Positions 1 to 47,225 of a DNA stretch of 64,000 nt are shown here, in pieces. The number at the start of each line of letters is the position of its first letter. Within the stretch, counting starts at the first letter, position 1. The stretch comes from Candidatus Eiseniibacteriota bacterium (GTDB lineage: Bacteria; Eisenbacteria; RBG-16-71-46; CAIMUX01; VGJL01). Location of the stretch: contig JBHGAY010000015.1 in the NCBI GenBank assembly GCA_041946735.1, forward strand, positions 1 to 64,000, read 5' to 3'. The notes below the pieces were generated by a model. That model had not been told where the DNA came from. It searched no databases and saw only the letters and a program-made list of their open reading frames with translations. The position numbers and the translations under genes were made by a program.

Positions 1-72
1 GGGCATGGCGAGCATCGCGGGCACCGCGGGCATGGCGAGCATCGCGGGCACCGCGGGCACCGCGGGCATCGC
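1..72 (+). repeat. 9/27-bp coding tandem repeat (MASIAGTAG)n
   Basis: gggcatggcgagcatcgcgggcaccgc twice, followed by gggcaccgc and gggcatcgc. Confidence 0.85.
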
Positions 73-1234: not shown

Positions 1235-1574
1235 GACCGCGCCATTCCCGGGCTTTCCGGAGCCCTTCCTGGGCTTGTCCGGAGCCTGTCCGGAGCCTTC
1301 CCGGGATCTTCCCGGCTGCTTCGATCCTCCGCACTGATCCTCCGCTGGCGGCGAAGATCGCCTGCACGCGAAACGCCACGCCGTCGCAATTCGCGCCGGT
1401 GAGTAGACTTTGTTGGCTGTTTTCTCGTGCACTTCGCGCGACGCCGTCGCATTCGAGCACCGATTGCGTCTCCGGCGCCGTGATGGGATGCATCTATGCC
1501 CGGTCCAGCAGCCGGTGAGGCTGTGGCGTCGGCGTGGAGCGCATCCGTGAATGTGCCGAGCGGAGGATCCTCCC

Positions 1575-2918
1575 TTGGAATCGAATCGTTCGAAGGACGC
1601 GGCCCGCGAGAACGGCCTCGTCCTGTTTCGTTCCGGAAATCATTGTGAAGTCTTGACCGCGGACGGTGAGAGCAAGCTGAGCTGCCTGTGCACCGGGGCG
1701 GCAGGCGAAGAGATTGCCGTCGGTGACCTCGTGGCCGTCGAGCGGGACGGTGCGGCGAGCGGGATCATCCGCTCCGTCGAGCCCCGCACGAATCACCTTT
1801 CGCGCCGGGCTGCCGGACCACGGCCGGTCGAACAGCGGATTGCTGCGAATCTCGACTGGGGCGTCGCAGTCTTCGCCGCGGCGGAACCGAAGCCGCACTG
1901 GGGCATGCTCGACCGCTACCTCGTGCAGATGGAGACCCAGTCCATCCCTCCTCTGCTCTGCGTAACGAAGTCCGACCTCGCCGCCGGCGTCCGGTCACTA
2001 GAAGCGGATCTCGAGCCGTATCGCGCCGCTGGGTTGCCGGTTCTCCTCTGCTCGTGCGAGACGGGTGAGGGGATCGGGGAGTTGGCGGCTTTGCTGCGCG
2101 GACGCGTGTCGGTCCTGGTCGGCAAGAGCGGCGTGGGGAAGTCGACGTTGATCCAGAAGCTGACCGGTCTGACGGGCGAGAGCCTGCGGACGGCGGAAGT
2201 GAGCCGGCGGACGGGAAAGGGGAAGCATACGACCAGCGAGATCCGAATGCTGCCCCTTCCGGACGGCGGCTTCGTGATCGACACACCCGGCGCCCGCGAG
2301 TTCGCGCTCTGGGACGTTCCCCGGGAGGAGATCGCCCGGGGGTTCCCGGAGATGAGATCGCTGCTCGGGACGTGTCGTTTCGGCGGAGGATGCACCCATT
2401 CCCACGAGCCTGACTGCGCCGTGAAGCAGGCGGTCCGGGAAGGCGAGATCGATGCGCGCCGGTACCGCAGCTACCTGCGCCTCATCGGTCGAGACGGCGA
2501 CGCCGAGCTTCTGGCCGGGAAGCACGGCGCCGATGACGAGCGGCGGGCGGCGCGCGGTCCGGCGGAGGCGTTCCTGTGCATCCGCTGCGGCCTCGGCATC
2601 CCGCCCGATGCCCCGGGGACCGCGCACCGCAACCACTGTCCCGCCTGTCTGCACAGCCGGCACGTCGATCACCACCCCGGGGATCGAGCGGCGGGCTGCG
2701 GCGGGTTGATGGAGCCGATCGCCGTCTCGGCACGCCTCGACGGCGAGTGGACCGTGGTGCATCGCTGCACGTCGTGCGGCGCGGTGAAAGTGAACCGCAT
2801 AGCGGGGGACGACAATGCTCTCGCCCTGTTCTCCCTCGCGGCGCGTCCGCTCGCGCGGCCGCCGTTTCCGCTCGATCGCCTACCCGATACGGCGGGAAGC
2901 CCCGAATGGCGCACGTGA
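1575..2918 (+). CDS. rsgA: Ribosome small subunit-dependent GTPase A fused to a C-terminal RNHCP domain
   Basis: Circularly permuted GTPase motifs TKSD, GKSGVGKS, GKHTT, DTPG; Zn finger CRFGGGCTHSHEPDC; C-terminal CIRC...RNHCPACLHSRHVD...HRCTSCG; TTG start chosen after SD GGAGGA (alternative ATG at 1551). Confidence 0.9.
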   Translation: MESNRSKDAARENGLVLFRSGNHCEVLTADGESKLSCLCTGAAGEEIAVGDLVAVERDGAASGIIRSVEPRTNHLSRRAAGPRPVEQRIAANLDWGVAVFAAAEPKPHWGMLDRYLVQMETQSIPPLLCVTKSDLAAGVRSLEADLEPYRAAGLPVLLCSCETGEGIGELAALLRGRVSVLVGKSGVGKSTLIQKLTGLTGESLRTAEVSRRTGKGKHTTSEIRMLPLPDGGFVIDTPGAREFALWDVPREEIARGFPEMRSLLGTCRFGGGCTHSHEPDCAVKQAVREGEIDARRYRSYLRLIGRDGDAELLAGKHGADDERRAARGPAEAFLCIRCGLGIPPDAPGTAHRNHCPACLHSRHVDHHPGDRAAGCGGLMEPIAVSARLDGEWTVVHRCTSCGAVKVNRIAGDDNALALFSLAARPLARPPFPLDRLPDTAGSPEWRT

Positions 2919-3056
2919 GCCCCAGCGGCTGCGGCCTTCGTCGCCGGCGGAACGGCCGCGACGCGGTTCGCTTCGATTTTCGCTTGACGCCCGCGCGCCG
3001 GGGTTGCGTAGTCAATGCGGCGCATTCCACGGGGAAGCGAGGAGAGGAGGGGCCGC

Positions 3057-4277
3057 ATGAGAGTCCTGTCGATCACGAATCAGAAGGGGGGCTGCGGAAA
3101 GACCACGACGGCGGTGCATCTTGCCGCCTGTCTCGCCGCCAAGGGTCATTCGACGCTCCTCGTCGACCTCGACCCGCAGGGACATGCGGGGCTGGCGCTC
3201 GGCATCGGCGGCGCGAAGCCGCTCGAGGCATCGACGTACGAGGTGCTGACGCGCCGGCAGCCACTCGAGGCGATCCTGCACGAGGTCTCGGAGCGGCTGG
3301 CGGTAGCTCCCTCCGACGTGCGGCTCAGCGCAGTCGAGCAGGAACTGTCGGGAGTCGAGGGGCGCGAGTACCGACTCTCCGAAGCGCTCGCCTCTCTCGA
3401 GCAGAATCGCTTTCCGTTTGTCGTGATCGACACGCCTCCATCGATCGGGCTTCTGACCTTCAACGCGCTGATCGCCTCGCCGGAGGTGCTCGTTCCGATC
3501 GATGGCAGCATCTTTTCGCTGCAGGGGCTGGACCGCCTTCGCGAGACGATCGCGATCGTCGACCGGCACGTCGGCCGCGCGACGACGGTGCGCGCGCTCG
3601 CTACGATCTATGACCGGCGCACGCGACTCGCCCGCGAGGTCCTCGAGGAGATTCGTACCCGGTTCGGAGACTGGGCGCTCCACACGGTCATCCATGAGAC
3701 GGTGAAGCTCCGGGAGGCGGCGAGCCAGGGGAAGTCGATCCTGGAGATCTGTCCCTCTTCGATCGCGGCGGAGGATCACCATTCGCTCGCCGCCGAGCTG
3801 CTCCAAGCCGCGACGCGCCGCGGGACGCGGACCGAGGCGGTATCCCCCGCCTTCTCGCTGCACGGCGGCGCTCCGGTCACACCAGCCGCCGCACTCGCGC
3901 CGAAGGTCGCGGCCGTTCCGGCTGAGACGCCCACTCCAAGCGGGCAGATCGCCCCGCGCGCGCCGATCGCCGCAACCGCGCCGATCGCCGCAGCCTCCTC
4001 CATTCGCGCCGCGCGCGCCGGCGGCACTCGCTTCGTCTATCCGGACGGCACCGCGGAGGCCGTCGCTGTCGCGGGAAGCTGGAACGGGTGGGAACCGCAG
4101 CCGTGCAAGAAGGTCGGCGACCGCTGGGAGAAGACGATCCTGCTCTCTCCGGGCGTCTATGAATACCGTTTCGTCGTCGACGGCCACTGGACGCCCGATC
4201 CCTCCAACGAGCGCCGGGCGGAGAGCCCGTATGGCGGGCACAACTCCGTCGTGGAGATCGCAGGCCACGGGCGATAG
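3057..4277 (+). CDS. ParA/Soj family ATPase fused to a C-terminal AMPK-beta-like glycogen-binding (CBM48) domain
   Basis: NQKGGCGKTT, LVDLDPQG, VIDTPP; Ala/Pro linker; AVAGSWNGW...GVYEYRFVVDGHWTPDP...GGHNSV; SD GGAGG. Confidence 0.88.
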   Translation: MRVLSITNQKGGCGKTTTAVHLAACLAAKGHSTLLVDLDPQGHAGLALGIGGAKPLEASTYEVLTRRQPLEAILHEVSERLAVAPSDVRLSAVEQELSGVEGREYRLSEALASLEQNRFPFVVIDTPPSIGLLTFNALIASPEVLVPIDGSIFSLQGLDRLRETIAIVDRHVGRATTVRALATIYDRRTRLAREVLEEIRTRFGDWALHTVIHETVKLREAASQGKSILEICPSSIAAEDHHSLAAELLQAATRRGTRTEAVSPAFSLHGGAPVTPAAALAPKVAAVPAETPTPSGQIAPRAPIAATAPIAAASSIRAARAGGTRFVYPDGTAEAVAVAGSWNGWEPQPCKKVGDRWEKTILLSPGVYEYRFVVDGHWTPDPSNERRAESPYGGHNSVVEIAGHGR

Positions 4278-5322
4278 CCGGGCGAGCGATTGGTCCACGC
4301 CGCGGCCGGAACGCCACCCCGGACGCGGGCTGGCGGATCTCTCGCATCTGTTCCTCTCCCGTCCGGCCTCCGCTACCGCGGGGACGAACGAGGAGGCCGC
4401 GCCCGGCGACCACCCGGTGCCCGCCACCTCGGTGCCCGCCACCTCCGGGCCGTCCGGCCCCGCATCGCCGGCCGCTCCCGCCTCCACGCTCTTCGTCGCC
4501 TACGCGACCGACCCGCTCCTGGGCGCGCTCCTATGCCTGACCATCGCCCTGGAATCGTCGCGCCGGGGCAAAGCCGCGACGATCCATGATCCCGACCCCA
4601 ACCTGCCTTCCGTGCAGATCCTTGCCGGCGGCTCCGTCCGCCGTTCCCCGGGTGGGAAGGAGCAGTGGATCGAGAGCGGCGATGGGCTCCGCATCCCGCT
4701 CCTCGGTCGGTGGCCGGAGCGTCTCGATCCATACGATCCCGGCTTCCGCCATCCCGCCGAGCCGCGCCTCCGTGCCGTCGTCAACGCACCGGCGCGGATG
4801 CTCCTCGATCAGCCGTGCCAGCCGCCGATCAGCGACGGACAGGAGATCCTGCTGCCCCTTTCGGCACGGCTGGAAGACCTTTCCGCCGCCTACGCGATCT
4901 GCAAGCGGTTCGGCGGCAGCCCGCGGCCGCGGGTCGTCTGCTCGTGCGAGAAGGAGCCCGACTCCCAACCCGATCGCGGATGGGCGCTCTTTCGGGGTTT
5001 TGCCTCGATCACCGCGCGCCGGCTTGGAGCCGGGCCGAGCTTCTGCGGGTGCCTGCCACAGACCGGGGCGCCTCCGCTTCTCGTCGAGACGGCCCAGCGC
5101 TGGCTCGGCGCTTCTCAAGAAGAAGGAGACCCGCTGCGCCGCATCGTGGACGCGGTCGTCGGTCCCTCCCGGCACGGGCTCGCGCTCGCTGCGCCGGGCA
5201 GCGCCACGCACGCGAACTCGACCGCCGACGCGATCGCCATCGCCTACGGCTTGGAGGACGAAGAAGCGAGCGACCTGCGAGCGCTCCTCGCCCGCAGGCC
5301 GCCCGCGTCTGCTTCCGTCTAG
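4231..5322 (+). CDS. Hypothetical protein, possibly a degenerate MinD/FlhG-like fold, with an N-terminal GRGL motif
   Basis: Overlaps the parA end; GRGLADLSHLFLS, then LCLTIALESSRRGKAATIHDPDPNLPSV, which resembles the MinD/FlhG region after a lost P-loop; start uncertain. Confidence 0.6.
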   Translation: MAGTTPSWRSQATGDSRASDWSTPRPERHPGRGLADLSHLFLSRPASATAGTNEEAAPGDHPVPATSVPATSGPSGPASPAAPASTLFVAYATDPLLGALLCLTIALESSRRGKAATIHDPDPNLPSVQILAGGSVRRSPGGKEQWIESGDGLRIPLLGRWPERLDPYDPGFRHPAEPRLRAVVNAPARMLLDQPCQPPISDGQEILLPLSARLEDLSAAYAICKRFGGSPRPRVVCSCEKEPDSQPDRGWALFRGFASITARRLGAGPSFCGCLPQTGAPPLLVETAQRWLGASQEEGDPLRRIVDAVVGPSRHGLALAAPGSATHANSTADAIAIAYGLEDEEASDLRALLARRPPASASV

Positions 5323-5373
5323 GGCTCTGTCTCCGGCTCCGTCTCCGGATAGCTCCGGCGTCCGCCTCCCGGG

Positions 5374-6354
5374 CTAATCCTCCCGGCGAATCAGCAGCAT
5401 CGTGAGGTCGTCGCTGTGCGTCCCTCCCTGGAGGAACCGATGCAGGTCGTGCAGGACGGCGGACGCCGCCTTCGAAGGGGGCAGGGAGCGAACCTCGCGG
5501 AGCATCTCCTCGAGCCGCTGCGTTCCATACTCCTCGGAGCTGCCGTCCCTCGCCTCGGACAGTCCGTCCGTATAGAGGAAGAGCATGTCGCCCGGCTCGA
5601 TCCTATCCTCGGTCACGCCGTACGGCTCGGTTCCGAACATGCCGACCGGGAAGCCCGTCGCGTCGAACGTGCGGATTCGGTCCCGTCCGATCAGGACCGG
5701 TGGGCAGTGGCCGGCGTTGCAGATCCGGATCTTCCCCTGCCGGGTCAGCTCTCCGCACACCAGCGTCGCGTAGTGCGTCGCGATGTGGTTCTCGCGCAGC
5801 AGCCGGTCGGACCGCTCGACCAGCTTCTCGATACCGAGGCCTGTCGCAGCGAGGCTGCGGAAGGCCGCGTGCAGGTGCGTCATCAGGAGCGACGCCGCCA
5901 CCCCCTTGCCCGACACGTCGCCGATCAGGAAGAGAAGCGTCTCCTCCCCGCGCGGGAGCAGGTCGCACGTGTCTCCGCTGACCGGGCCCGCCGCCTCGTA
6001 GCGGAAGTGCGTCGTGTAGCCCGCATGGCTGAGATCCTGCCTGGGCAGGAGGCCGAGCTGCAGGCGCGCGGCGAGATCGAGGTCCTTCTCGAGCGCGGTT
6101 TGCTGCTGCGGCGTCAAGTCGCAGAGGCAGTACTCGATCAGCGGATTGTGGAGCAGCAGCTCGTCCTCCACCTCGCCGTGACAGAGGCGGCACACGCCGA
6201 ACTCGCCTCCATCGAGGCGTGACAGGGCCCGGTCCACCTGCTGGAGCAGCTGGGAGAGATCGACGGCGTCGGGGAGCGCCTCGATCGCCCGCTCCAAGCG
6301 CACGCGGCGGTCGACGAGTTGCTCACGAACGGCTGCTTGCACGGCAGGGTTCAT
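5374..6354 (-). CDS. SpoIIE/RsbU-type PP2C phosphatase with an N-terminal DksA/TraR-like Zn finger
   Basis: VSGDTCD, GDVSGKG, NAGHCPP, LYTDGLSE, DDLT; N-terminal ALSRLDGGEFGVCRLC...CLC; SD AAGGAGG. Confidence 0.9.
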   Translation of the reverse strand: MNPAVQAAVREQLVDRRVRLERAIEALPDAVDLSQLLQQVDRALSRLDGGEFGVCRLCHGEVEDELLLHNPLIEYCLCDLTPQQQTALEKDLDLAARLQLGLLPRQDLSHAGYTTHFRYEAAGPVSGDTCDLLPRGEETLLFLIGDVSGKGVAASLLMTHLHAAFRSLAATGLGIEKLVERSDRLLRENHIATHYATLVCGELTRQGKIRICNAGHCPPVLIGRDRIRTFDATGFPVGMFGTEPYGVTEDRIEPGDMLFLYTDGLSEARDGSSEEYGTQRLEEMLREVRSLPPSKAASAVLHDLHRFLQGGTHSDDLTMLLIRRED

Positions 6355-21149: not shown

Positions 21150-22832
21150 CTACTTCGCCGCGGAGTCGATGACCAGATAGATCGTGGCGAGCTGCGAGAG
21201 CACTCCGAGCGTCGTGAGGGCTGACTTCCATAGGTCGCGCTGCGGCTTCCGGGGAACCCATATCGTGTCGCCCGGGCCGAGGCGGTCCACCTTGCCCTTC
21301 TTGATCCACTGGCCGGTCAGGGCGCGCACGACGGTGACCTTCCCTTTGTCGGCCTGGTCCGTGTAGCCGCCGGAGCGTTCCACGTAGCGGTCGATCTCCT
21401 CGCCCGCCAGGAACGGCACGTTGCCGGGGCGGCGCACCTCGCCCGCGACCGTGACGAACGGCTGGATCTTTGGAACGACCACGAGGTCGCCGGGCCGTAC
21501 GTAGACGTCCTGCGATCTGTCCCCCTCGAGAAAGAGAGCGGGGAAGTCCACCGAGAGGACCGGCCGGCTCGTCCGCAGCCTCATGGAGTAGTACTGGAAC
21601 TCCTCCGGGGTCATCTCGCCGGTCGGAAGCTGGCGCAGGCGATCGTACTCCGGGTCGGGCACCGCCTCCGGAATGTCTCGCGTGACGTACGCCTCCCCGA
21701 GCGCGGCGGTCGGCGTGAACCCTCCGACGTCCGCGATGAGCTGTGTGAGCAGCAGGGAGTCGGTGGGGAGCGCGTGCATCCCCGGGTTTCGCACCTCGCC
21801 GATCACGCGGACGGTCCGGCCTTCGCTGCGCTCGACACGCGGCCGCACGAAGAGAAGATCGCCCGGGCCGACGAGCATCGCGCGGTCGGCCGGATTGCGC
21901 AGGTCGAGGAGTCGCCGCGGGCGCGGCGCATCGCGCGACCCGCCGGACTGCAGATACGCGGAATCGGGCATCGCCTCCTCGTCGAGGCCATGCGCGAGGG
22001 CGAGGAGCGTTCCCACCGAGTCGCCCGGGACCACCTCGACCGGGCCGGGCTTGCGGACCGCGCCGCTCACCACCGCGGTCGCGACGTACGGCGGGACCAC
22101 GATACGGTCCCCCGCTTCGACGGTGGGATTGTGGATGAGCGCGCCGGTCGCCTCGAAGAGGGCGAGATCGACGGGGAGCACGTTGCCGTCCTGGCGAAGA
22201 AGGCGAATCGCGCGCTGCGAGCTGCGGCGAGGTTGCGCCGAGCCGGCGAGGCTCGTGAGAGGCGCGGCCGCCGCCTGCTCCAGCTCTCGCTGGCCGATCT
22301 CGAACGGCTCCGCCCGAGTGACGAGCTCCGAGGCGCGGTCGTTCGGCGTGGCTTGCTGCAGTCCCGGCTTTCGCACCTCCCCGAGGACGTAAGCGGTGAT
22401 CGTCCGCAGCTCGAGCAGGTGCAGATCGACCTCTCCGGAGCGGTAGTAGCGGGACATCGTGTCGCGGAGGAGATCGTTCGCTTGCTCGATCGTAAGGCCT
22501 GCAACGTGCACGGACGGCCCCTCCGGAAGGATCAGGTATCCGTCGGGCGTGACGCGCAGCGTTCGTTCGACGGGCGGGGTCGCGCGAACGCGGAGGCTCA
22601 ACAGGTCTCCGGGCCCGAGACGGTAGGCCGAGCGGTCGACGGGTCCTTCCAGCGGTCGCGGGAGCGGAGTCGTCCCGAGCGTACCCGGCTGGCTGTCCCC
22701 CGCAGTCCCGGGCGGCGCCGCCGGCGTTTGCGCTCCTGCGTTGCCGGACAAAGTGCATGCGAGGAGGGACGCAAGGAGCAGGAGGATCGTGCAGGCGCCT
22801 GCGCGCCACGGCCGCTTCTGGAACATCCTCAT
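21150..22832 (-). CDS. Polysaccharide export protein with SLBB repeats (Wza/KpsD-like)
   Basis: YRLGPGDLL, VTPDGYLILP, repeated V.GEVR.PG motifs; ATGA overlap with the upstream GT2. Confidence 0.9.
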   Translation of the reverse strand: MRMFQKRPWRAGACTILLLLASLLACTLSGNAGAQTPAAPPGTAGDSQPGTLGTTPLPRPLEGPVDRSAYRLGPGDLLSLRVRATPPVERTLRVTPDGYLILPEGPSVHVAGLTIEQANDLLRDTMSRYYRSGEVDLHLLELRTITAYVLGEVRKPGLQQATPNDRASELVTRAEPFEIGQRELEQAAAAPLTSLAGSAQPRRSSQRAIRLLRQDGNVLPVDLALFEATGALIHNPTVEAGDRIVVPPYVATAVVSGAVRKPGPVEVVPGDSVGTLLALAHGLDEEAMPDSAYLQSGGSRDAPRPRRLLDLRNPADRAMLVGPGDLLFVRPRVERSEGRTVRVIGEVRNPGMHALPTDSLLLTQLIADVGGFTPTAALGEAYVTRDIPEAVPDPEYDRLRQLPTGEMTPEEFQYYSMRLRTSRPVLSVDFPALFLEGDRSQDVYVRPGDLVVVPKIQPFVTVAGEVRRPGNVPFLAGEEIDRYVERSGGYTDQADKGKVTVVRALTGQWIKKGKVDRLGPGDTIWVPRKPQRDLWKSALTTLGVLSQLATIYLVIDSAAK

Positions 22833-23824
22833 CCCTCCCGGCTCTCCCGGCTCGATCCGGCGGCGGCTTTGCCTGCCTGCGGCGCGGTCGCGCCCCCTGA
22901 TCCCGTCTTTGGCCCCCGCGCAGCTTCCCACACTTTCAGGACTTCGAGAAACCCATAGATCCCGAGCATCGAGCTGGTTGCGATGCCGATCCTGCCCTCG
23001 CGCCAGCCGCTCAGGCGCAGGTAGGACCAGAGGAAGAGGCGGACTCCCGCCCAGATGGCGATGAGGCCGGTCCGGGAGCGCGCCGCCTTGAGGCCCATGG
23101 CGGAGGTGCCGGGCGAGGTGCCGTCCAGGATGCGCTGCGCCTCGCGCGTCGTGTAACGGTTCGTCTTGCGGATGAAGTCGCGGAGGGTGGGATACGGCTC
23201 GTGGAGGATCGGCGCGGCAAGGCGTCCCACCGTCCCGTCGACCTCGAGCGGCTCGTGGATGGCGTGCAAACGGTAGCGACCCCTGCCGGAGCGGAAGAGG
23301 CGGATCAGCCGGCGATGCCGGCCCCAGTAGCCGTAGCTCGGCCAGGTCCCGAGCACCGAGGTCCAGAACGGGATCGCGAAGGCCGCGTCGCTCGGCTGCG
23401 ACGCGACCGCCGCCCGCATCTCGGCGGCAAGCTCCGGCGAGACGCGCTCGTCCGCATCGACCTGCAGGATCCAGCCCGCGGGGATCTGCGGGAACGCCCA
23501 GTTGAGATTGCCGTGCACCGGGTCGATCTCGGGCGGCAGCACGTGCGGAACGATCCACGAGGTGAAGCCCGCGGCGATCTCGACGGTCCGGTCGGTCGAG
23601 CCGTTGTCGACCAGGAGGATCCGGTCGGCCCAGAGGAGGGAGCGGAGGCATCGCTCGATGTTCGCTTCTTCGTTCAGGGCGAGGACGACGGCGGTGATCG
23701 CGTGGGGATCGGTGGCCGGGCCGCCCGGCAGCGGGAGCGAATCCGACGCCGGTGCCCGCGACGGTGCGGGTGCGGACGGCATGCCGCCGGGAACGTTCAG
23801 CGGAGCGGAAGCGCCCGCGCCCAT
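22829..23824 (-). CDS. GT2 glycosyltransferase
   Basis: VVLALNEEANIERCL, VDNGSTDRT, VDADE; start uncertain (23782 or 23824). Confidence 0.9.
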   Translation of the reverse strand: MGAGASAPLNVPGGMPSAPAPSRAPASDSLPLPGGPATDPHAITAVVLALNEEANIERCLRSLLWADRILLVDNGSTDRTVEIAAGFTSWIVPHVLPPEIDPVHGNLNWAFPQIPAGWILQVDADERVSPELAAEMRAAVASQPSDAAFAIPFWTSVLGTWPSYGYWGRHRRLIRLFRSGRGRYRLHAIHEPLEVDGTVGRLAAPILHEPYPTLRDFIRKTNRYTTREAQRILDGTSPGTSAMGLKAARSRTGLIAIWAGVRLFLWSYLRLSGWREGRIGIATSSMLGIYGFLEVLKVWEAARGPKTGSGGATAPQAGKAAAGSSRESREG

Positions 23825-24945
23825 TCGTAGGTCTCCAGGGTTGCCTGCACGCATCCCGAGATCGTATAGGAGCGAGCCCAGCGCTCGTGCCCGGCGGCGC
23901 CGAGAGCCGCGCGCCGCTGCGGATCGAGCGCGAGGCGAAGGACCGCCTCCGACATCGCCGCCGGATCGCGCGGTTCGACGAGCAGCCCCGTTTCTCCGTC
24001 GGCGACGATCTCCGGGATCCCGCCGGCGCGCGTCGCGACGATCGGCAGCCCAGACGCCATCGCCTCGAGCAGCACGATGCCGAGCGCCTCCTGGCGGGAG
24101 GGGAGAACGAAGAGATCGGCAGCCGCCATCAGTCGGGCGAGATCGCGCCGGAAGCCGAGCAGGCGGAGCCGCTCGCCGGCGGGAGAGCCGTCCGCCGCCG
24201 ATCGGAGGCGCGCATCGAGCGGCCCGCGACCGGCCATCAGGAGATAGAGATCCGGGGCATCGGCGCGGCGGACCGCTCGCTCGAACGCCTCCCAGAGGTC
24301 GAGCGTCCCCTTCGTCTCATCGAGCCGTCCGGCGAAGAGCAGGAGGATCGCCGGCTGCGCGATCTTCAGCTCCTCGCGGACCTCGCGCCGCGCCGCCGCC
24401 CGCTCGACGGAGTTGCCGTCGACGCCGTGCGGGATCACGCGGATGCGCTCGGGCGGGAAGCGGTAGACGGAGGCGACGGCGCGAGCGACCACCTCACTCG
24501 GCGCGATGTAGAAGCGGGTGCGGCGCGCGCCGGCCCGCTCGATCCACAGACGCGGCCCGGTGCGCTGGTAGGGGGACCGTAGAACGTGGCCGTGCTCGGT
24601 CGCTGCGATCGCCATCGCGGGAACGCGCGGGAGAAGGGCGCGCAGCCAGGGGACCGAGACGTGGTCGTGGAGGAGCGCCGGGCGGAGCGCGCGCACCGCG
24701 CTCGCCACGGCCCTGGGCCCGCGCGGGTCGCGGCCGGTCGTCAGCCCGCAGCAGCGCACACCGGCTCCGGCGCTGCGCAGGATATCGCCCGCTCCACCGT
24801 CCCTCGAGAGATAGAGGACGCCGCAGCGCACGCCTTGCCGCGCCATCCCGACCGAGAGATCGAGGACGTGACGCTCGGCGCCGCCGCCGGTCCCCTCCCA
24901 CAGGACGTGGAGGACGTCGAGAGCGCGAGGCGCCTCGGTGCTCAT
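23797..24945 (-). CDS. GT4 glycosyltransferase
   Basis: GGGAERHV, FAGRLDETKG, PSRQEALGIVLLEAMASG. Confidence 0.92.
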   Translation of the reverse strand: MSTEAPRALDVLHVLWEGTGGGAERHVLDLSVGMARQGVRCGVLYLSRDGGAGDILRSAGAGVRCCGLTTGRDPRGPRAVASAVRALRPALLHDHVSVPWLRALLPRVPAMAIAATEHGHVLRSPYQRTGPRLWIERAGARRTRFYIAPSEVVARAVASVYRFPPERIRVIPHGVDGNSVERAAARREVREELKIAQPAILLLFAGRLDETKGTLDLWEAFERAVRRADAPDLYLLMAGRGPLDARLRSAADGSPAGERLRLLGFRRDLARLMAAADLFVLPSRQEALGIVLLEAMASGLPIVATRAGGIPEIVADGETGLLVEPRDPAAMSEAVLRLALDPQRRAALGAAGHERWARSYTISGCVQATLETYEWARALPLR

Positions 24946-26471
24946 CCGCGGATCCGCTGCATCGCGGTTCGGGCGAACGGATGCCTCAGCATCCAGAGAA
25001 CGAGGAAGTAGGCGAGGAGCCCGGCGATGCCCGCGGCCGCGAGATCGAGAAGGGCGTCTCCCCATCCCGCGAGCGGGACTGCCGGAAGCGCGCGAAGCAA
25101 GACGGCCGCCGCCACCGCCGACGTCGCCGCCCCCGCCAGCGCCGCCCCCGCCCCTCGTGCCGCCGCGCTCCACAGGCTCGCCGGCAGGCGCTTGTGCACG
25201 ATCGCGAGCAGCACGACACAGGAAGTCCAGAGGCCGGTAGCCACGCCGATCGGGACCCACAGCAGCCCGAAGCGGAGCGCGAGCAGGTTCGCGATTCCGG
25301 TCACCACGAGCTGGATGCCGCCGGCCAAGGCGAGCGGCCGCGTGCGCTGCGTCGCGTAGGAGAAGTCGCGGAGCAGGTAGTAGACGGCGACCGGCAGCAC
25401 GCCGAGGACACCGATACGCAGCAGCGTTGCTACCCCGTGGACGTCCTGCGCGTCGAAGAGGCCGCGCTGGAACGCCAGCTCCACAATCTGCGGGGCGAGG
25501 AGCAGCACGAACGCGGTGATCGGCAGGAAGAGGAAGAGGTTCAGGTCGAGGCCGCGCGCGAGCGTGTGGGCGCGGTCCGCCCCGCCGGCCGATCGATCCC
25601 GCGACATCGTGACGTAGATCGGAAGCGCCACCGACGCGGCGAGGACGGTCTGCAGCGGGGCGATCAGCTTGCGCGAGTAGGCGAGCATCGAGAGGCTCCC
25701 GGCCGGCAGGAAGGAGAGGACCGCGCGCTCGATGTAGCCCGCCGCCTGCACGAGGAAGACGCCGAGCGCGACCGGGGCGACGAGCGTGCCGACGCGCCGC
25801 AGCTCCGGCGGCAGCAGCGGGTGTCGCAGCAGCGCGCCTACCGGCCAGCCTGGCAGCAGCAGGACGAGGAGCAGCGCCTGCGCGAGCGCCGCGCCGTCGA
25901 GCGCGAACATCCAGCCGCGGTACGCCATCGTGGGCGGGAAGGCGAGCAGTACGGCCGTCTGGAGGAGGTTTCCGGTCAGCATGACGAGCGCGGGGACCGC
26001 GTAGCGGTGGTGCGCGTTGTGGATCGTCTTCGCGAACTCCGCCAGCTCGGTGAAGAAGAGCGCCGGCGCGACCGCGCGCAGCAGGCGGGCGCCCGTCTCG
26101 ATCTGCTCCGGACCGAGGCCTGGGGCGACCATCCGCAGGATCGCGACGGGCCAGAGCACCACGGCGAGCGACAGCGCGCCGGCCGCGAGCGCCGTGGCGC
26201 GGAGCCCCGAGCTGCGCAGGCGCGCGGCGCGCTCCCCGCTTGCGTCCTCCTCGAGCGCGTGCCCGTAGACCGACACGAACGCGGCGAACGTCTCCCGGAC
26301 GAGCAGGATCGTCGGTAGGAAGAGGAGCACCGCCTCGGCGTAGACGACGAGGTCGGCGCTGCGCGAGACCCCGAAGCGCGCGGCGATCGAGGCGTTGCGC
26401 GCGAGAGCGGCGAGGTTCGCGGCGACCGAGAGCGCGGTCACCGTCCCGATGCGGCGTCCGAGGAGGCTCAC
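24942..26471 (-). CDS. MurJ/MviN-like MOP flippase
   Basis: Many TM segments; IAARFGVS, IVELAFQRGLFD. Confidence 0.8.
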   Translation of the reverse strand: MSLLGRRIGTVTALSVAANLAALARNASIAARFGVSRSADLVVYAEAVLLFLPTILLVRETFAAFVSVYGHALEEDASGERAARLRSSGLRATALAAGALSLAVVLWPVAILRMVAPGLGPEQIETGARLLRAVAPALFFTELAEFAKTIHNAHHRYAVPALVMLTGNLLQTAVLLAFPPTMAYRGWMFALDGAALAQALLLVLLLPGWPVGALLRHPLLPPELRRVGTLVAPVALGVFLVQAAGYIERAVLSFLPAGSLSMLAYSRKLIAPLQTVLAASVALPIYVTMSRDRSAGGADRAHTLARGLDLNLFLFLPITAFVLLLAPQIVELAFQRGLFDAQDVHGVATLLRIGVLGVLPVAVYYLLRDFSYATQRTRPLALAGGIQLVVTGIANLLALRFGLLWVPIGVATGLWTSCVVLLAIVHKRLPASLWSAAARGAGAALAGAATSAVAAAVLLRALPAVPLAGWGDALLDLAAAGIAGLLAYFLVLWMLRHPFARTAMQRIRG

Positions 26472-28081
26472 GGCCGGCCTCCCTCCGGCGCGGCGAGCGC
26501 CGAGCGCGCGGGAAGCGGCGCACCGGACGGCAGCGGCTCACCGGCCGGTTGCGCCGCGCCTGCCGGCAAAGGCGTTCCCACCGGCAGCGCCGCCCGCGAT
26601 CCCTCCTCGACCTCCCGCTCGTACAGCCGCCGCCACGCGAACCCGGTCAGCATCCAGAACAGCAGGTTCGACGGGTTCGTGTTCATCGGGCCGTTGGAGA
26701 GATTCGCGATGAGCAGCACCGCCACCGCGGATCCCGCGATGACCCCGAACCGGCGCTCGTCAGGGTCGCGGCTGCGCGCGAGCCTCCCCAGCGCGATCAG
26801 CGGAAGCAGATGGACCGAGAAGAGGGCGAGCCAGCCGATCCATCCCGCCTCGAGCGCGGTCGTCAGGTAGAAGTTGTCGGTCGGGATCCCCCCCTCGGCG
26901 CTCGACCGCATCCCGAGCTTGTAGTAGACGAGGAGGTTCGCCGTCGATCCGATGCCTCGTCCGATCACCGGCTCATCCCAGAGCAGCTTCCATCCGCGCC
27001 GGTTCTCCTCCAGACGGAAGACGAGCGAAGTCGAGACGCCCTTCTGCAACGTGAACGACGTCATGACCCGGTTGCGGATCAGATCCCCGAATCGGATCCA
27101 TCCGATCCCGGCGACGAGAAGGGTGACGATCAGAAACCACAGCAGGAGCTTCCCGCTCCTCTGGCGCACGACGAGGATCAAGACGAACAGGAAGACCGCG
27201 GAGATCATCGTCATGTTGTAGGTCAACAGCAGCGCGTAGCCGAGCAGCGCGAGGCCGAGGACCACGATCGCGCGCTTGCCCCTGCTGCTGGCCGCGCCGA
27301 GCAGGTGCAGGGAGAGCGCGATCCCGAGGAAGGAGAGCGCCGCGACCGAGGACTGATCGTCGAGGAACGAGAAGAGCCGCTGGTACAGCTTCCCGCTGAT
27401 CGGATCGACCGCCACGAACGCGACCATGCCGGTCTCCAGGCTCAGACCGAAGCGGAGCAGGGTCTCGACCGGGACGAACGACTGGATGACCGCTCCGAGC
27501 GCGACCGCGCAGCAGAGGCCGAAGACCCACCACAGGAATCGCGGTACGCGCGTCATGCCGCCCGCCGCGTCGTACGCGATGAAGATCAGGAGCGGGTAGA
27601 GGAGATAGCCGATCGTTGCGTTGACGATCTGGAGGGCCGGGACGCCGCGAGTCGCCGTGACGGCCGCGAGCATCCCGAAGATTGCCGCGGCCCCGCCGTA
27701 GACGGCGAGCGGAACTCGCGCGCCTCGCCAGTGAGGGGAGCGGTCGGCTGCGCGCGTCAGCAGCCAGATCGGCAGGATCGCCAGGAAGAAGATCCCTTTG
27801 AACCATCCGAGAGGGAGGTGGACGATCCGCGCGAAAAAGGGCGCGAAGGTAGCGTACAGCAGAAAGAACCCGAGGAAGAGCCCCGGGCGGAGGAGCAGCA
27901 GGAACGCGCCGGCCGCGGCGACCGCGCTCGCGGCGAGCAGGATCAGCCCTCCGAACGGCGGCTTCCAGACCATTCCGGCGATGAAGAGGATCGTGCCGAG
28001 CCCGAGACCGGGAAGGAGGTAAGCCGCCGGCGCCGGGATGCGGACAATGGGGGTTTCGAGGGAGCGGACGCCCGGAGTCAT
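26468..28081 (-). CDS. Wzy polymerase / O-antigen ligase family membrane protein
   Basis: Multiple TMs; PVIGRGIG...TDNFYLTTALEAGWIG. Confidence 0.8.
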   Translation of the reverse strand: MTPGVRSLETPIVRIPAPAAYLLPGLGLGTILFIAGMVWKPPFGGLILLAASAVAAAGAFLLLLRPGLFLGFFLLYATFAPFFARIVHLPLGWFKGIFFLAILPIWLLTRAADRSPHWRGARVPLAVYGGAAAIFGMLAAVTATRGVPALQIVNATIGYLLYPLLIFIAYDAAGGMTRVPRFLWWVFGLCCAVALGAVIQSFVPVETLLRFGLSLETGMVAFVAVDPISGKLYQRLFSFLDDQSSVAALSFLGIALSLHLLGAASSRGKRAIVVLGLALLGYALLLTYNMTMISAVFLFVLILVVRQRSGKLLLWFLIVTLLVAGIGWIRFGDLIRNRVMTSFTLQKGVSTSLVFRLEENRRGWKLLWDEPVIGRGIGSTANLLVYYKLGMRSSAEGGIPTDNFYLTTALEAGWIGWLALFSVHLLPLIALGRLARSRDPDERRFGVIAGSAVAVLLIANLSNGPMNTNPSNLLFWMLTGFAWRRLYEREVEEGSRAALPVGTPLPAGAAQPAGEPLPSGAPLPARSALAAPEGGRP

Positions 28082-28202
28082 CGCTCGCTCGCCTCCGCGG
28101 GCGATGGCGCCTCCGCGCGCGGTGTCGCCGCGCCACCGCGCTTCGCCCCGTCGCGGCGCTTCGCTCCGCCTCGGACGGAAGCGGAGGCGGCGAGCCGCAC
28201 CT

Positions 28203-29345
28203 TCACGCGGCAGCCCGGCGGGCGAGGACGCGCATCACCCGGCACTGATTGCGCAGCACGCGCTCCGCATCGTAGCGCCGCGACGCCCGCAGCCCCTCCC
28301 GCCCCAGCGACGCGCGCAGCGCCTCGTCCTCGAGGATTCGCGAGAGCGCTCGATAGAGCGCGTTCACGTCGCCGGGCGGAACCAGCAAACCCTGCCGGCC
28401 GTCCTCGATCAGGTCGGTGTTCCCCGGGACGCGCGTCGCCACGATCGGAGTCCCGGACGCGAGCGCCTCGAGCACGATCTTCGGATTCCCCTCAGTCACG
28501 AGCGAGGGCAGGACGAGAACGAGCGCCGAGCCGAGATGCTGCGCGACCTCGTCCTGCGGGCGGCTGCCGAGGAATCGCACGCGCCGCCCGGGGACTTCTC
28601 GCTCCGCCTTGCGCTCCAGGCTCTCGTGCTCCTCCCCGGTGCCGAGGATCAAGAGCTCGACCCCGTCGCGCTCACGCGCGATCCGGCCGAATGCGTCGAT
28701 CAAGAGGCCCACTCCCTTGCCGGGATGCAGGCGGCCGGCGTAGAGGATCGTGGGGCGCCGGTTTGGAGCGGGCCTGAACATTGCCCGATCGACCGGATTG
28801 GGAACGACGATCGCACGCCGTCCGTAGCCTCGTGTCGCCACCGAGGCGAGCAGGGGAGTTGTCGCGATCACGAGGTCGGCGGCGAGGAGGCAACGGCTCT
28901 GCATGCGCGAGGCGAAGAGCTTCTTCGCGCCGCCGTAGTAGGCCTGCGTCGTCCGCGCCCAGTCGTAGCGGAGGTCGACCAGGAACTTGCCCCGGCCGCC
29001 CCCGCGGCGCTTCATTTCGGGAAGGACCGCGAGGTTCGAGCTGAGGACCCGCACGAGTCCCGACATGCGGTCGGCCGCCCGCACGAGGCGGCGATAGTAG
29101 ATGAGGACCTCGAGCGGCCGCGGCAGCGCGGCGGGCAGTCCCGCGAGCAAGGGACGATGGTCCACCCCGAGCTCCACGCTGAACGAGCGAGCGTCGGCGC
29201 TGTAGAGGTCGACCGCGAACTCGTGGCTATAGGCGGCGAGCGTCTTCTTGAAGTAAGGCCCCATCCCGAGCCGCAGGATGTCCGCCACCGAGGCGTCGGT
29301 GCTCAAGACCAGATGGAGAGGAAGCTTTCGGACCGCCGGATTCAT
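28203..29345 (-). CDS. GT4 glycosyltransferase
   Basis: YAGRLHPGKG, PSLVTEGNPKIVLEALASG; ATGA overlap with the upstream gene. Confidence 0.9.
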   Translation of the reverse strand: MNPAVRKLPLHLVLSTDASVADILRLGMGPYFKKTLAAYSHEFAVDLYSADARSFSVELGVDHRPLLAGLPAALPRPLEVLIYYRRLVRAADRMSGLVRVLSSNLAVLPEMKRRGGGRGKFLVDLRYDWARTTQAYYGGAKKLFASRMQSRCLLAADLVIATTPLLASVATRGYGRRAIVVPNPVDRAMFRPAPNRRPTILYAGRLHPGKGVGLLIDAFGRIARERDGVELLILGTGEEHESLERKAEREVPGRRVRFLGSRPQDEVAQHLGSALVLVLPSLVTEGNPKIVLEALASGTPIVATRVPGNTDLIEDGRQGLLVPPGDVNALYRALSRILEDEALRASLGREGLRASRRYDAERVLRNQCRVMRVLARRAAA

Positions 29346-30595
29346 CCCCGGCGCGCCTCGGCCCGCCCCTGCCCGCCGTCCTCCCGCCTCGACGAGCGTC
29401 TCAGTCTCGCGATCTCCTCGGGGAGCGGACTCTCGACGAGGGCGGCGGCCAGCAGCGCGACGAGGGCTCCGGACAAGAGCCCGGCGACGACCATCAGCTT
29501 CCGCTTCGGGGAGAATCGCTCCTCCGGCGGGACTGCGGTGTCGAGCACCTGCACGGTCGGGGTGTCGCGCGCCTCCTGGATCTTCGCCTGGTAATACTGC
29601 TGGTTCAGGTAGGTCTGCAGGAGAAGCTGCGCCTGCAGCTCCCGCTCGTAATCGGCGAGCTGGAGCGCCAGGTCCGGGATGCTGGACGTCGCGAGCGACG
29701 TGGCCGGGTCGGACGACCCCGGCCGCGATCCTTCCATCTTGGCGATCGCCTCCCGGAGCTGGGCGATCTCGTTCTCGAGATTGGTGACGACCGGGTTGTC
29801 GGGAGTCATCGATTGCCGCGCGATCCCGAGATCGACCTCTTTCGCCATCAAATCGCTCTTCAGCTTGGCCGATCCCTCGATCAGCACCTTCGTCTGGACG
29901 TCGAGCGCGACCGCGCCGTGCTGCCGCTGGAATCCGGCGACTGTCTCGCCCAGTCGGCGGATCGACGCGTTGTTCTCGTCGAGCTGGCGCTCGAGGTAAA
30001 TGCGCGTCTGCTTGGCCCGCGAGAGAGACTTCTCGCGGTTGACCGCGTCGAGCTCCGCGACCAGATCGTTCGCCGTGTCGGCCGCCTTCGCTCGCGTGCG
30101 GGCGTCGACCGAGGGTGAGGTGAACCAGCCGGTGTCCATGCGCACCGAGATCTCGATCACACCGGCATCGTTGACCGAGACGTCGGTCGCGCCGCGCAGC
30201 AACGCCACCGCCTGTTCCATTGCGAGCGGCGCCGCCGGATGCGGGATTCGCCACCAGTCGATCAGGTCCTGCTTGCGGATGACCGCTTCCATCACCGTCC
30301 GGCTCTTCAGGATCTCCTGGAAGAGCTTCGCCGTGGACATCGACTCGTCGCGGATGCCGAGGAGCCCGAGCGAGGCCTCGAGCCCCGGCGTGCCGCTGAA
30401 GCCCCCCGCGCTCGAGCTGACCGGCGGAAGCAGGCTCGTCCGCGCCACGTAGGCGCGGGGCATGACGAGCGAGAGGACGATCGAGAGCAGGAGGAACCCG
30501 GCGACGACGCCGAAGATGAGTTTCCGATGCCTCCAGGGCACCTCCAACATCGCGCCCAGGCTCCGTCCGGCGGGACGTCCTGCATGTTCCGTCAT
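29342..30595 (-). CDS. Polysaccharide co-polymerase (Wzz/GNVR type, no kinase domain)
   Basis: Two terminal TMs flanking a coiled coil; EILKSRT, VLDTAVPPEERFSPKR. Confidence 0.88.
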   Translation of the reverse strand: MTEHAGRPAGRSLGAMLEVPWRHRKLIFGVVAGFLLLSIVLSLVMPRAYVARTSLLPPVSSSAGGFSGTPGLEASLGLLGIRDESMSTAKLFQEILKSRTVMEAVIRKQDLIDWWRIPHPAAPLAMEQAVALLRGATDVSVNDAGVIEISVRMDTGWFTSPSVDARTRAKAADTANDLVAELDAVNREKSLSRAKQTRIYLERQLDENNASIRRLGETVAGFQRQHGAVALDVQTKVLIEGSAKLKSDLMAKEVDLGIARQSMTPDNPVVTNLENEIAQLREAIAKMEGSRPGSSDPATSLATSSIPDLALQLADYERELQAQLLLQTYLNQQYYQAKIQEARDTPTVQVLDTAVPPEERFSPKRKLMVVAGLLSGALVALLAAALVESPLPEEIARLRRSSRREDGGQGRAEARRG

Positions 30596-30758
30596 CGTTC
30601 GGCCCCCGCGCTAGGCGCCCGGCCGGATCCGATCGAGCGGGCGGACGGAATCCTGGCGGACGGACTCCGACCGGCGACGATTCGATCCGGTTCGAGGCGT
30701 TGCGAAGTTGAGGTTTCCGAGGTTCACGAGGTGCGGACGGCTCCTCCTTGCGGAGCGG

Positions 30759-32102: not shown

Positions 32103-32190
32103 CCCGACCCAGGCTACTCCGGCGCGTGGCGACGCGGAACCCTTGTCCCGCGTGGCACCGAGCGGCTACGCGGGGCGCGCGGCCCCCGCG

Positions 32191-32260
32191 CTCGGAAGCG
32201 CCCGGAAGCGCCCCGGAGCGCTCGGAAGCGCTCGGGAGCGCGCGGGCGCGCCCCGAAGCA
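32191..32260. repeat. 10-bp period tandem repeat (7 units) in a divergent promoter region
   Basis: ctcggaagcg cccggaagcg ccccggagcg ctcggaagcg ctcgggagcg cgcgggcgcg ccccgaagca. Confidence 0.75.
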
Positions 32261-32374
32261 CGGTCCCATCTGCTGCATCCGCGCGCGCCGCGATGCTAGA
32301 GTCCACGCGATCCGTGACGTGACCGGATCGAGGAAGCGATCGATCGCGTCCGTCGGGAGGACAGGAGGGGCCGA

Positions 32375-46778: not shown

Positions 46779-47225
46779 GTGAAGCGCTTCTGGCCCAGCC
46801 TGATTCTCGCCATCATCCTGCCGGTTCTCGGTTGCGGCGGCGGAAACCGCGGCGATGAGAACGCGTCTGCGACGGAGCGCGGAACGACGGCCGATACGAC
46901 GGCGGTCAACGACACGAACCGGGTCTACACCCAGGACGAGATGACCGCGTACAGGACGCAGGTGACGCAAGACCTCCAGAATATGAATCAGCAGCTGACG
47001 CAGATGCGATCCCGCATGGCGAACATGACGTCCTCGGCGCAAGCCGACATGCAGCAGCAGCTCGACCGAATCCAAACGGAGCGCCAGACGATTCAGGCCC
47101 GCGTGGACTCGTTGGAGACGGCCACCGGGACGCAGTGGACAAGGATCCGGATCCGGGTCGACCAGGACCTGAAGAACCTGCGCGCGGATCTCGAGGACGC
47201 GGGCGACAAGCTGCAATCGCAATAG
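46779..47225 (+). CDS. Coiled-coil lipoprotein
   Basis: GTG start after SD GGAG; lipobox VLGC; Gln/Thr-rich helical body. Confidence 0.8.
   Translation: MKRFWPSLILAIILPVLGCGGGNRGDENASATERGTTADTTAVNDTNRVYTQDEMTAYRTQVTQDLQNMNQQLTQMRSRMANMTSSAQADMQQQLDRIQTERQTIQARVDSLETATGTQWTRIRIRVDQDLKNLRADLEDAGDKLQSQ

What the first reader, a model, noticed from the sequence alone, without database searches (positions are those of the whole stretch)
3057..5322. ParA-glycogen-binding fusion paired with a protein carrying a ParB-like GRGL motif: possible carbon-granule positioning system
Seen: an intact Soj-type ATPase is joined by an Ala/Pro linker to an AMPK-beta-like CBM48 domain. The overlapping downstream gene begins GRGLADLSHLFLS and continues into a MinD/FlhG-like region with no Walker A. 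I noticed no ParB CTPase gene or parS site in the window. Established: ParB/Spo0J N-termini use an LG(R/K)GL motif to stimulate ParA, and orphan ParA/MinD ATPases position carboxysomes (McdAB) and chemoreceptor arrays. Inference: this pair may position glycogen granules or link glucan status to ParA dynamics.
Basis: partly seen in the sequence, partly recalled or inferred. Interest (0 to 1): 0.72.

Follow-up and report, generated by a model that had tools for sequence, protein, structure and literature searches.

The report
Glycogen-binding ParA with tagged dead-ATPase partner
This two-gene unit joins a chromosome-partition-type ATPase to a glycogen-binding module and pairs it with a dead ATPase carrying a short conserved tag; a 2026 preprint proposed such pairs are immune systems, but they more likely tether and spread out the cell's glycogen stores, which is untested.

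Summary
Window 3057-4277 encodes an intact Soj-type ParA, a disordered linker and an AMPK-beta-type CBM48 with intact sugar-binding residues. The overlapping gene (probably 4231-5322) is a FlhG/FleN-fold pseudo-ATPase; its motif lies near residue 31, not at the start. The chromosomal parABS is on another contig. The conserved tag is L-x-D-I-S-H-x-F-L-S; G(R/K)GL occurs in only 6 of 20 partners found from the ParA side. All 30 loci found by the tag alone lie directly behind this ParA and/or its CBM, and 7 have no CBM, so the tag tracks the ATPase domain. Predicted tag-ParA binding is weak (0.42, best control 0.08). An October 2026 preprint already describes the architecture ('ConB5') and proposes immunity. 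Against that: invariant glycogen-site residues, presence in 112 of 151 Omnitrophota genomes, absence from all 10 lacking glgA, and few defence-type neighbours. Best reading: ATP-gated tethering of glycogen to the nucleoid, released by the tagged partner (0.45). Rivals: glycogen sensor, immunity, another cargo. Nothing is tested experimentally. This scan has reported the family before on other DNA.

The parts
3057..4277 (+). ParA-CBM48 fusion gene, 406 aa
   Evidence: 119 of the 120 homologues listed carry PF16561
3057..3812 (+). Soj/ParA-type ATPase domain (residues 1-252): Walker A K10/K15, D37/D39/Q41, Walker B D125, DNA-binding R188 and K217; family signatures C13 and H43
   Evidence: best PDB match M. 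xanthus ParA 8RAY, E 5.7e-47; conservation in 134 non-redundant fusions
3822..4022 (+). Ala/Pro-rich linker, predicted disordered; from about 15 to over 400 aa long in relatives
   Evidence: pLDDT under 50 at residues 267-314; lengths
4023..4259 (+). AMPK-beta-like CBM48; W345, R371, W378, G393, N396 align with AMPK-beta1 W100, K126, W133, G147, N150
   Evidence: mutational data for W100, K126, W133, G147 from passages of PMC6274970; N150 is recalled
4231..5322 (+). Partner gene, about 363 aa from the inferred start ATG 4231 (an ATG at 4159 is also in frame); FlhG/FleN-fold pseudo-ATPase
4321..4359 (+). Tag helix GRGLADLSHLFLS, the putative ParA-docking and activating peptide
   Evidence: helix 16-24 of the model; weak complex support
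4486..5058 (+). Walker-A-less FlhG/FleN-like body
   Evidence: hhalign to a partner profile built without the window row: probability 96.3, E 1.7e-9; Foldseek FleN 5J1J, E 8.5e-9

Best explanation
This is an orphan ParA-type ATPase fused to a glycogen-type carbohydrate module, which likely tethers glycogen particles to the nucleoid and is likely switched off by the short tag helix of the neighbouring dead FlhG-like ATPase, so that glycogen would be spread along the cell rather than heaped at one pole. Shown from sequence: the domains, intact catalytic, DNA-binding and sugar-binding residues, the dead partner, and the tag's constant link to the ATPase gene. Inferred steps: (1) ATP-bound dimers bind DNA non-specifically through R188/K217; (2) dimerisation presents two CBMs on flexible linkers, so glycogen binding gains avidity in the ATP state; (3) the tag docks in a remodelled ParB-type pocket at the dimer interface and triggers hydrolysis and release; (4) the partner acts as a spatial landmark, probably at the membrane in relatives that keep an FlhG-type C-terminal helix or use a transmembrane partner. 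The geometry is the reverse of McdAB: cargo binding is on the ATPase and the activator is separate.
For: In 134 non-redundant fusions W345 is kept in 134, W378 in 132, R/K371 in 129, G393 in 133 and N396 in 105 (D in 25); R188 in 132 and K/R217 in 121. K217 aligns with M. xanthus R238, whose change to E removes non-specific DNA binding. In 151 Omnitrophota genomes the fusion is in 112 of 141 with glgA and 0 of 10 without (Fisher p 5e-7; 46 of 70 versus 0 of 10 among genomes of 1.9 Mb or less; kin are not independent and the genomes are incomplete). The window's genome has glgA (C14) and a GH57 gene that looks like a branching enzyme (C34). A GH57 gene (one with the branching-enzyme C-terminal domain) follows the operon directly in 2 related loci of 25 examined (L182, L183). 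Tag-first scan: the family ParA domain is directly upstream in 26 of 30 loci and its CBM fragment in the other 4 (several are near-duplicates). The tag sits on unrelated bodies (pseudo-FlhG, NucS-like domain), and a similar helix leads the Omnitrophota membrane partner. Complex prediction of ParA dimer plus ATP, Mg and tag gave weak support: score 0.42, best of 3 controls 0.08; the mark was reached by 116 of 157 solved and 2 of 215 mismatched pairs, but at 0.60 or under by only 18 of the 157 and by both mismatches; runs agree in at least 82% of contacts; partner pLDDT at least 49; likeness to solved ParA-partner complexes may contribute. In E. coli, glycogen forms polar condensates that skew nucleoid and division site (abstract of PMC12706056), so there is a problem to solve.
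Against: No experiment exists. 7 of 26 tag-linked ParAs have no CBM yet keep their partners, nested among fusions in a quick tree, and one such genome (G044) still has glgA, so the core module can run without direct glycogen binding. Most glycogen makers lack it: 2 of 172 genomes of the own phylum carry it while 37 of 41 relatives have glgA; 14 of 151, 1 of 151 and 6 of 151 in three other phyla. In the phylum of G044, 14 of 14 carriers have glgA against a background of 138 of 151, which is uninformative. Only 14 of 20 genomes behind loci have a strong GlgA match; of 5 of the other 6 tested, 3 have GH57 and 2 have GlgE matches, and G046 has neither. No glycogen gene lies in the window. A ratchet normally needs the activator on the cargo, and nothing shows the partner binds glycogen. 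The window's partner lacks the FF-type C-terminal helix. The MerR-like and NucS-like genes of relatives are not explained.
Confidence: 0.45

Rival explanations
1. Glycogen-status sensor. As in AMPK, the CBM is a regulatory input: granules sequester or tune the ParA switch, which then signals through the FleN-like pseudo-ATPase and the MerR-like regulator to gene expression or the cell cycle. Glycogen is the signal, not the cargo.
For: CBM-less operons keep all other genes. A MerR-like gene lies directly upstream in many relatives (19 loci hit, some duplicates). The partner is closest to FlhG and to FleN, a transcriptional antiactivator. Glycogen inhibits AMPK through this module (passages of PMC6274970). 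Dependence on glgA fits equally well.
Against: This genome's operon has no adjacent MerR or NucS-like gene, and Omnitrophota mostly use a membrane partner instead. No output domain is shared by all versions. The DNA-binding surface is conserved as in positioning ATPases.
Confidence: 0.25
2. Immune system, as proposed by Li, Burroughs and Aravind (bioRxiv 10.64898/2026.10.19.760177): the lectin senses infection-related carbohydrate or polysaccharide depletion and ParA multimerises to block a phage.
For: Sporadic distribution outside Omnitrophota. Fast-diverging partner (mean column identity 25%). Inactive NucS-like partner in relatives, with weak PADLOC PDC-S18 similarity (E 1.5e-4). Sensing glycogen depletion would also predict dependence on glgA.
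Against: The preprint's stated argument is rapid CBM divergence, but mean pairwise identity is 41% for the CBM against 47% for the ParA domain and the ligand residues are nearly invariant. The fusion is in 112 of 151 Omnitrophota genomes, often in the same gene order. Of 112 neighbouring proteins from 27 loci, 6 hit PADLOC at 1e-10: three ABC ATPases, one sigma-54 activator, one helicase, one PLD (no positive control was run). The window version has no effector, and its neighbours are housekeeping genes.
Confidence: 0.15
3. The ParA-tag module positions some other cargo (a protein complex reached through the pseudo-FlhG, NucS-like or membrane partner), and the CBM is an accessory anchor that uses glycogen as a matrix or is dispensable.
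For: Classical geometry puts the activating peptide on the cargo adaptor (passages of PMC11407121), and here the tag is on the partners. The CBM was lost more than once.
Against: The CBM is kept with an intact site in most members. No other cargo gene recurs among neighbours.
Confidence: 0.12
4. The partner in this genome is a decaying remnant and the locus no longer works.
For: The partner is very divergent (13-28% identity to relatives), has a low-complexity insert, an unusual 47-nt overlap, and the NucS-like and MerR genes are missing.
Against: Both frames are open with gene-like codon use. The tag is intact, and the same two-gene layout is in G005, where the ATPase domain is 65% identical.
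Confidence: 0.03

Closest known systems
ParA-CBM 'carbohydrate-binding-module-containing system' (ConB5), second variant, bioRxiv 10.64898/2026.10.19.760177 (computational only)
   Same: ParA fused to a C-terminal AMPK1_CBM, followed by a divergent, catalytically dead second ParA-family gene; sporadic over several phyla. The other variant (upstream TM-CBM gene) was also seen here in Omnitrophota.
   Different: No inactive REase gene was found in this genome. The parts I read give no tag peptide, no FlhG/FleN origin for the dead partner and no glgA dependence, and they propose immunity.
Chromosomal ParABS (Soj/Spo0J; M. xanthus ParA 8RAY with the ParB N-terminal motif, PMC12462528)
   Same: PriB1-type ATPase with the DNA-binding basic residues; partner with an N-terminal basic-plus-hydrophobic helix that lines up with ParB L11/R13/L15/L18 in many relatives.
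   Different: No ParB CTPase or HTH and no parS nearby; the true parABS is on C56. Pocket residues differ (V116 to Q95, L155 to F135, D110 to R89, N64 to H43). The tag has an extra S-H-x-F-L-S turn. A CBM is fused to the ATPase.
McdA/McdB carboxysome positioning and other ParA/MinD cargo systems (review PMC11407121)
   Same: Orphan nucleoid-type ParA plus a partner with an N-terminal peptide.
   Different: The presumed cargo-binding module is on the ATPase. The partner is a pseudo-ATPase. The genes are rarely next to cargo genes. The review's main text has 0 occurrences of 'glycogen' or 'granule'.
FlhG/FleN (4RZ2, 5J1J)
   Same: Fold and profile match of the partner (E 2.8e-36 for the family profile); an FF-type C-terminal helix in about half of the relatives aligned.
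   Different: P-loop lost, N-terminal tag added, not in a flagellar locus. The genome has two FlhG-like genes with intact P-loops elsewhere (C8, C14).
AMPK beta-subunit CBM48 (1Z0M) and the CBM48 of GH13 pullulanase (5OT1)
   Same: Same module and ligand residues.
   Different: Attached to a positioning-type ATPase rather than a kinase or hydrolase.

Membership tests
ParA/Soj-type ATPase (PriB1) | Deviant Walker A KGGxGK[ST] with preceding Asn, DxD plus Gln, Walker B Asp | tested here: met
   N8, K10, K15, T16, D37, D39, Q41, D125; definitions from preprint section 12 and passages
ParA/Soj-type ATPase (PriB1) | Basic C-terminal surface for non-specific DNA binding, no membrane-targeting helix | tested here: met
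   R188 in 132 of 134, K/R217 in 121 of 134; K217 aligns with M. xanthus R238
ParA/Soj-type ATPase (PriB1) | ATP-dependent dimerisation, DNA binding and hydrolysis | not testable with these tools
   needs biochemistry; H43 replaces the Motif 2 Asn in 133 of 134, effect unknown
Chromosomal ParABS | Cognate ParB CTPase/HTH gene and parS site | tested here: not met
   partner has no ParB domain; parA-parB and two parS-like sites are on C56
Chromosomal ParABS | LG(R/K)GLxAL-type motif and its acidic and hydrophobic pocket on ParA | tested here: inconclusive
   window has PGRGL; G(R/K)GL in 6 of 20 and R/K at the R13 position in 13 of 20 ParA-first partners (counted by hand); pocket partly kept (Y61, E62, E96, I130, L132) and partly changed (R89, Q95, F135)
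CBM48 / AMPK1_CBM | Profile match above cut-off and W100/K126/W133/G147 equivalents | tested here: met
CBM48 / AMPK1_CBM | Binds alpha-glucan | not testable with these tools
   inferred from residues only
ConB5 ParA-CBM system (preprint) | ParA fused to C-terminal AMPK1_CBM (the core and defining feature) | tested here: met
ConB5 ParA-CBM system (preprint) | Variant 2: second, inactive, fast-evolving ParA-family gene | tested here: met
ConB5 ParA-CBM system (preprint) | Variant 2: inactive REase gene | tested here: not met
   a profile from 9 relatives finds nothing in this genome at E 1 (genome 94.8% complete); present in relatives
ConB5 ParA-CBM system (preprint) | Rapid CBM divergence as a sign of an immune role | tested here: not met
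   CBM 41% versus ParA 47% mean identity, ligand residues nearly invariant; dN/dS was not computed
ConB5 ParA-CBM system (preprint) | Anti-phage activity | not testable with these tools
   no experiment in the parts of the preprint read; few defence-type neighbours
FlhG/FleN | MinD-like fold | tested here: met
FlhG/FleN | Intact P-loop and place in a flagellar locus | tested here: not met
   no GKS/T in the window partner; neighbours are rsgA and a SpoIIE-type phosphatase; intact FlhG-like genes on C8 and C14
FlhG/FleN | C-terminal amphipathic membrane helix | tested here: inconclusive
   FF-type helix in about half of 19 aligned partners, absent in the window, which ends in a different short helix
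McdAB-type cargo positioning | Partner peptide binds and stimulates the ATPase | tested here: inconclusive
   weak predicted complex, 0.42 versus best control 0.08; genetic linkage in 30 of 30 tag-first loci
McdAB-type cargo positioning | Activator sits on the cargo; genes lie by the cargo genes | tested here: not met
   CBM is on the ATPase; glycogen-type gene adjacent in 2 of 25 loci, none in the window

The most novel reading that the evidence does not exclude
Many bacterial phyla carry a dedicated machine for positioning glycogen: a ParA that grips the storage polymer itself and is switched off by a portable tag helix grafted onto different landmark proteins (dead FlhG, dead nuclease, membrane lectin). 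It would be the first active segregation system for a polysaccharide reserve and an inverted form of the ParA ratchet, and the immune role proposed in print would be wrong.
Probability: 0.35. Interest if true: 0.85.

Novelty: new member of a known kind. Interest (0 to 1): 0.52.

Why it matters
Glycogen is the commonest bacterial carbon store, and in E. coli it piles up at the old pole and skews nucleoid position and division. My searches found no active positioning system for it. This small soluble two-gene version makes the question testable in E. coli with and without glg genes, and the same experiment separates the glycogen reading from the immune reading in print. The tag helix would also be a second, orthogonal ParA-activating motif, useful for understanding how several ParA/MinD ATPases avoid cross-talk. 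The architecture itself is already in a preprint, which limits the novelty.

Tried and rejected
Chromosomal partition locus: rejected, parABS is on C56. Flagellar FlhG: rejected, intact copies lie elsewhere. Assembly frameshift at the junction: rejected. GRGL as the conserved unit: rejected in favour of the longer helix. Pfam, NCBIfam and PADLOC give nothing for the partner. No promoter-like site was found in 2700-5600, and the one terminator-like hit is at chance level. No RNA holder was listed, which says nothing about expression. The glgA test in the phylum of G044 had no power. The G062 match was dropped from the fusion count: a 269-aa ParA without CBM next to pilus-assembly-like genes. 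The careful tree did not finish; the quick tree separates 28 canonical ParAs (support 98) from the family but does not prove one origin, and row L034 was mislabelled as CBM-less although it has a partial CBM. My gene caller is crude and missed some genes, so neighbour counts are lower bounds. Not used: representative-library search, protein atlas, RNA tools. The preprint's supplements (taxonomy, alignments, Fig. 5K detail) could not be seen and may mention the tag or glycogen links.
Full report
Observation. Window 3057-4277 (+) encodes 406 aa. Pfam places a ParA-type ATPase at residues 1-171 (AAA_31, E 1.6e-45) and an AMPK1_CBM at 325-401 (E 2.4e-12). The nearest solved structures by sequence are M. 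xanthus ParA 8RAY (E 5.7e-47) and, for the tail, a pullulanase CBM48 and AMPK-beta1 (E 9e-9 and 3e-8). The AF2 model has two confident domains and a disordered linker at 267-314. A second frame runs 4159-5322. It has no family hit but scores as coding. Its likeliest start is ATG 4231, which puts GRGLADLSHLFLS (4321-4359) at residue 31, so the gene does not begin with the motif. A contig from another study matches 4258-4408 exactly. The genome's chromosomal parA, parB and two parS-like sites (found with a recalled consensus) are on C56, so this ParA is an orphan.

The ATPase. In 134 non-redundant fusions (from 202 collected) the catalytic residues are nearly invariant, with two family signatures: C13 in Walker A (132) and H43 in place of the Motif 2 Asn (133). 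R188 (132) and K/R217 (121) are kept; K217 aligns with M. xanthus R238, whose R238E variant lacks non-specific DNA binding. Against the ParB pocket mapped in PMC12462528 (abstract, sections 8 and 14 and passages read), I aligned by hand: L150, L152, L187, L192 stay hydrophobic (I130, L132, I167, V172), Y81, E82, E117 are kept (Y61, E62, E96), while V116 becomes Q95 (Q in 120 of 134), L155 becomes F135 (108) and D110 is not acidic. That suggests the same site tuned to a different peptide (inference).

The CBM. W345, R371, W378 and G393 align with AMPK-beta1 W100, K126, W133 and G147, whose mutation abolishes or reduces glycogen binding (passages of PMC6274970). They are kept in 134, 129 (R/K), 132 and 133 of 134 sequences. 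Mean pairwise identity is 41% for the CBM and 47% for the ParA domain.

The partner. A profile of 18 downstream genes from relatives, built without the window row, matches the window body (hhalign 96.3%, E 1.7e-9; E 4e-16 in the genome) and matches FlhG 4RZ2 (E 2.8e-36) and FleN (E 3.6e-35) far better than Soj (E 3e-6). The AF2 model (pLDDT 67) finds FleN first in Foldseek (E 8.5e-9). The P-loop is gone in all but L030. About half of the relatives end in an FF-type helix like FlhG's; the window protein does not.

The tag. Among 20 partners found from the ParA side, G(R/K)GL occurs in 6 and a basic residue at the ParB R13 position in 13; the constant part is L-x-D-I-S-H-x-F-L-S, with His and Phe at 90% or more in the 29-row alignment. 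Scanning metagenomes for the tag alone gave 30 loci. The family ParA domain is directly upstream on the same strand in 26, and a CBM fragment in the other 4 (two cut by the contig end). Seven of the 26 have no CBM (several loci are near-duplicates). The tag sits on either the pseudo-FlhG or a NucS-like domain. In Omnitrophota an upstream membrane protein with a CBM30/CIA30-like outer domain often starts with a related helix. So the tag follows the ATPase domain, not the CBM or the partner body. Folding the ParA dimer with ATP, Mg and the tag gave weak support only: 0.42 against a best control of 0.08; passes at or under 0.60 came from 18 of 157 solved complexes and from both mismatches that passed; contact agreement at least 82%, partner pLDDT at least 49; no interface was returned.

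Distribution. 119 of the 120 best homologues listed carry the CBM. The fusion is in 2 of 172 genomes of the own phylum (this one and G005, same two-gene layout), 13 of 151 in the phylum of G044 plus one CBM-less member, 1 of 151 Acidobacteriota, 6 of 151 Planctomycetota and 112 of 151 Omnitrophota; each sample includes its centre genome, a carrier by choice, and the phylum names come from the record titles. In Omnitrophota it was found in 112 of 141 genomes with glgA and 0 of 10 without (p 5e-7, 8e-5 for genomes of 1.9 Mb or less; one CBM-less match was dropped; relatedness and incompleteness inflate this). Results that do not help: glgA is in 37 of 41 relatives of which 2 carry the fusion; the test in the phylum of G044 is uninformative; 6 of 20 genomes lack a strong GlgA match, one of them with no GH57 or GlgE match either. 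The window's genome has glgA and GH57 genes on other contigs.

Neighbourhood. The window neighbours are an ABC transporter, rsgA, a SpoIIE-type phosphatase and a peptidase; no glycogen, defence or mobility gene was seen among the ORFs scanned. Among 95 neighbours of 25 other loci, a GH57 gene follows the operon in two related loci. PADLOC hit 6 of 112 neighbours, four of them generic ATPases.

What is in print. It describes this architecture and both variants, and proposes immunity from rapid CBM divergence, without experiment. Its main text has no 'N-terminal peptide', 'ParB-like', 'Omnitrophota' or 'MerR'. Searches for ParA with CBM48 and glycogen, or for glycogen granule positioning, found nothing else on this system (listings only). 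A 2024 review of ParA/MinD cargos has no 'glycogen' (passages of PMC11407121). Glycogen forms polar condensates that skew E. coli division (abstract and outline of PMC12706056).

Mechanism. Most likely (0.45) the ATP dimer binds DNA, holds glycogen through two CBMs, and is released where it meets the tagged partner, which spreads or anchors the granules. Every functional step is inferred. The main weakness is geometry: classical systems put the activator on the cargo, and CBM-less operons exist. Hence a glycogen-sensing switch (0.25) and a different cargo (0.12) stay open. Immunity (0.15) fits the patchy distribution and the dead nuclease of relatives, but not the invariant ligand site, the near-core presence in Omnitrophota or the neighbourhoods.

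Verdict. A real, conserved two-gene system and a new member of the computationally described ParA-CBM family, lacking that variant's dead nuclease. Its function is unknown experimentally and the evidence here leans against the published immune reading. Interest 0.52; 0.85 if glycogen positioning is shown.

Noticed in passing
window 1551-2918 (+): RsgA ribosome GTPase fused to a C-terminal RNHCP zinc-binding domain, directly upstream of the ParA gene.
   Followed up: no
window 47135-48568 (+): Encapsulated-ferritin-like gene followed by a family 1 encapsulin shell gene, 43 kb from the ParA pair; a possible alternative cargo, not seen next to the pair in the other loci examined.
   Followed up: partly
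window 21153-34225: Exopolysaccharide or O-antigen cluster: Wza/SLBB export protein, MurJ-like flippase, Wzy/ligase, Wzz, asparagine synthase.
   Followed up: no
L141-L146: ParA-CBM fusions with linkers of 300 to over 400 residues, acidic or Ala/Lys-rich repeats (frames of 640-806 aa), each behind a MerR-like gene.
   Followed up: partly
L024/L140, L154, L157, L160, L169, L174-L176: CBM-less members that keep MerR-like, tagged pseudo-FlhG and/or NucS-like genes.
   Followed up: partly
L025, L035, L037, L063: Omnitrophota gene order: a secreted or outer-membrane-like gene, a membrane protein with tag-like helix and CBM30/CIA30-like domain, ParA-CBM, and in L025, L035 and L037 a small membrane protein downstream.
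   Followed up: partly
own genome C1:47096-46200 (-): MerR-like protein distantly related to the operon's MerR of relatives (45 bits against about 190 for true members), unlinked.
   Followed up: partly
own genome C17:22067-21321 (-): A third, divergent orphan ParA, a long branch in the tree.
   Followed up: no
L199/L201 (G052) and L147 (G062): Other ParA subfamilies with the same Cys in Walker A: a tandem pair, and one ahead of pilus-assembly-like genes.
   Followed up: no
G067, G112, G130, G142, G194, G210: GlgA matches in open frames of about 1030 aa, suggesting a glycogen synthase fusion in some Omnitrophota.
   Followed up: no
window 1-60: The start of the ABC transporter frame has a short tandem repeat (GMASIAGTA twice).
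   Followed up: no
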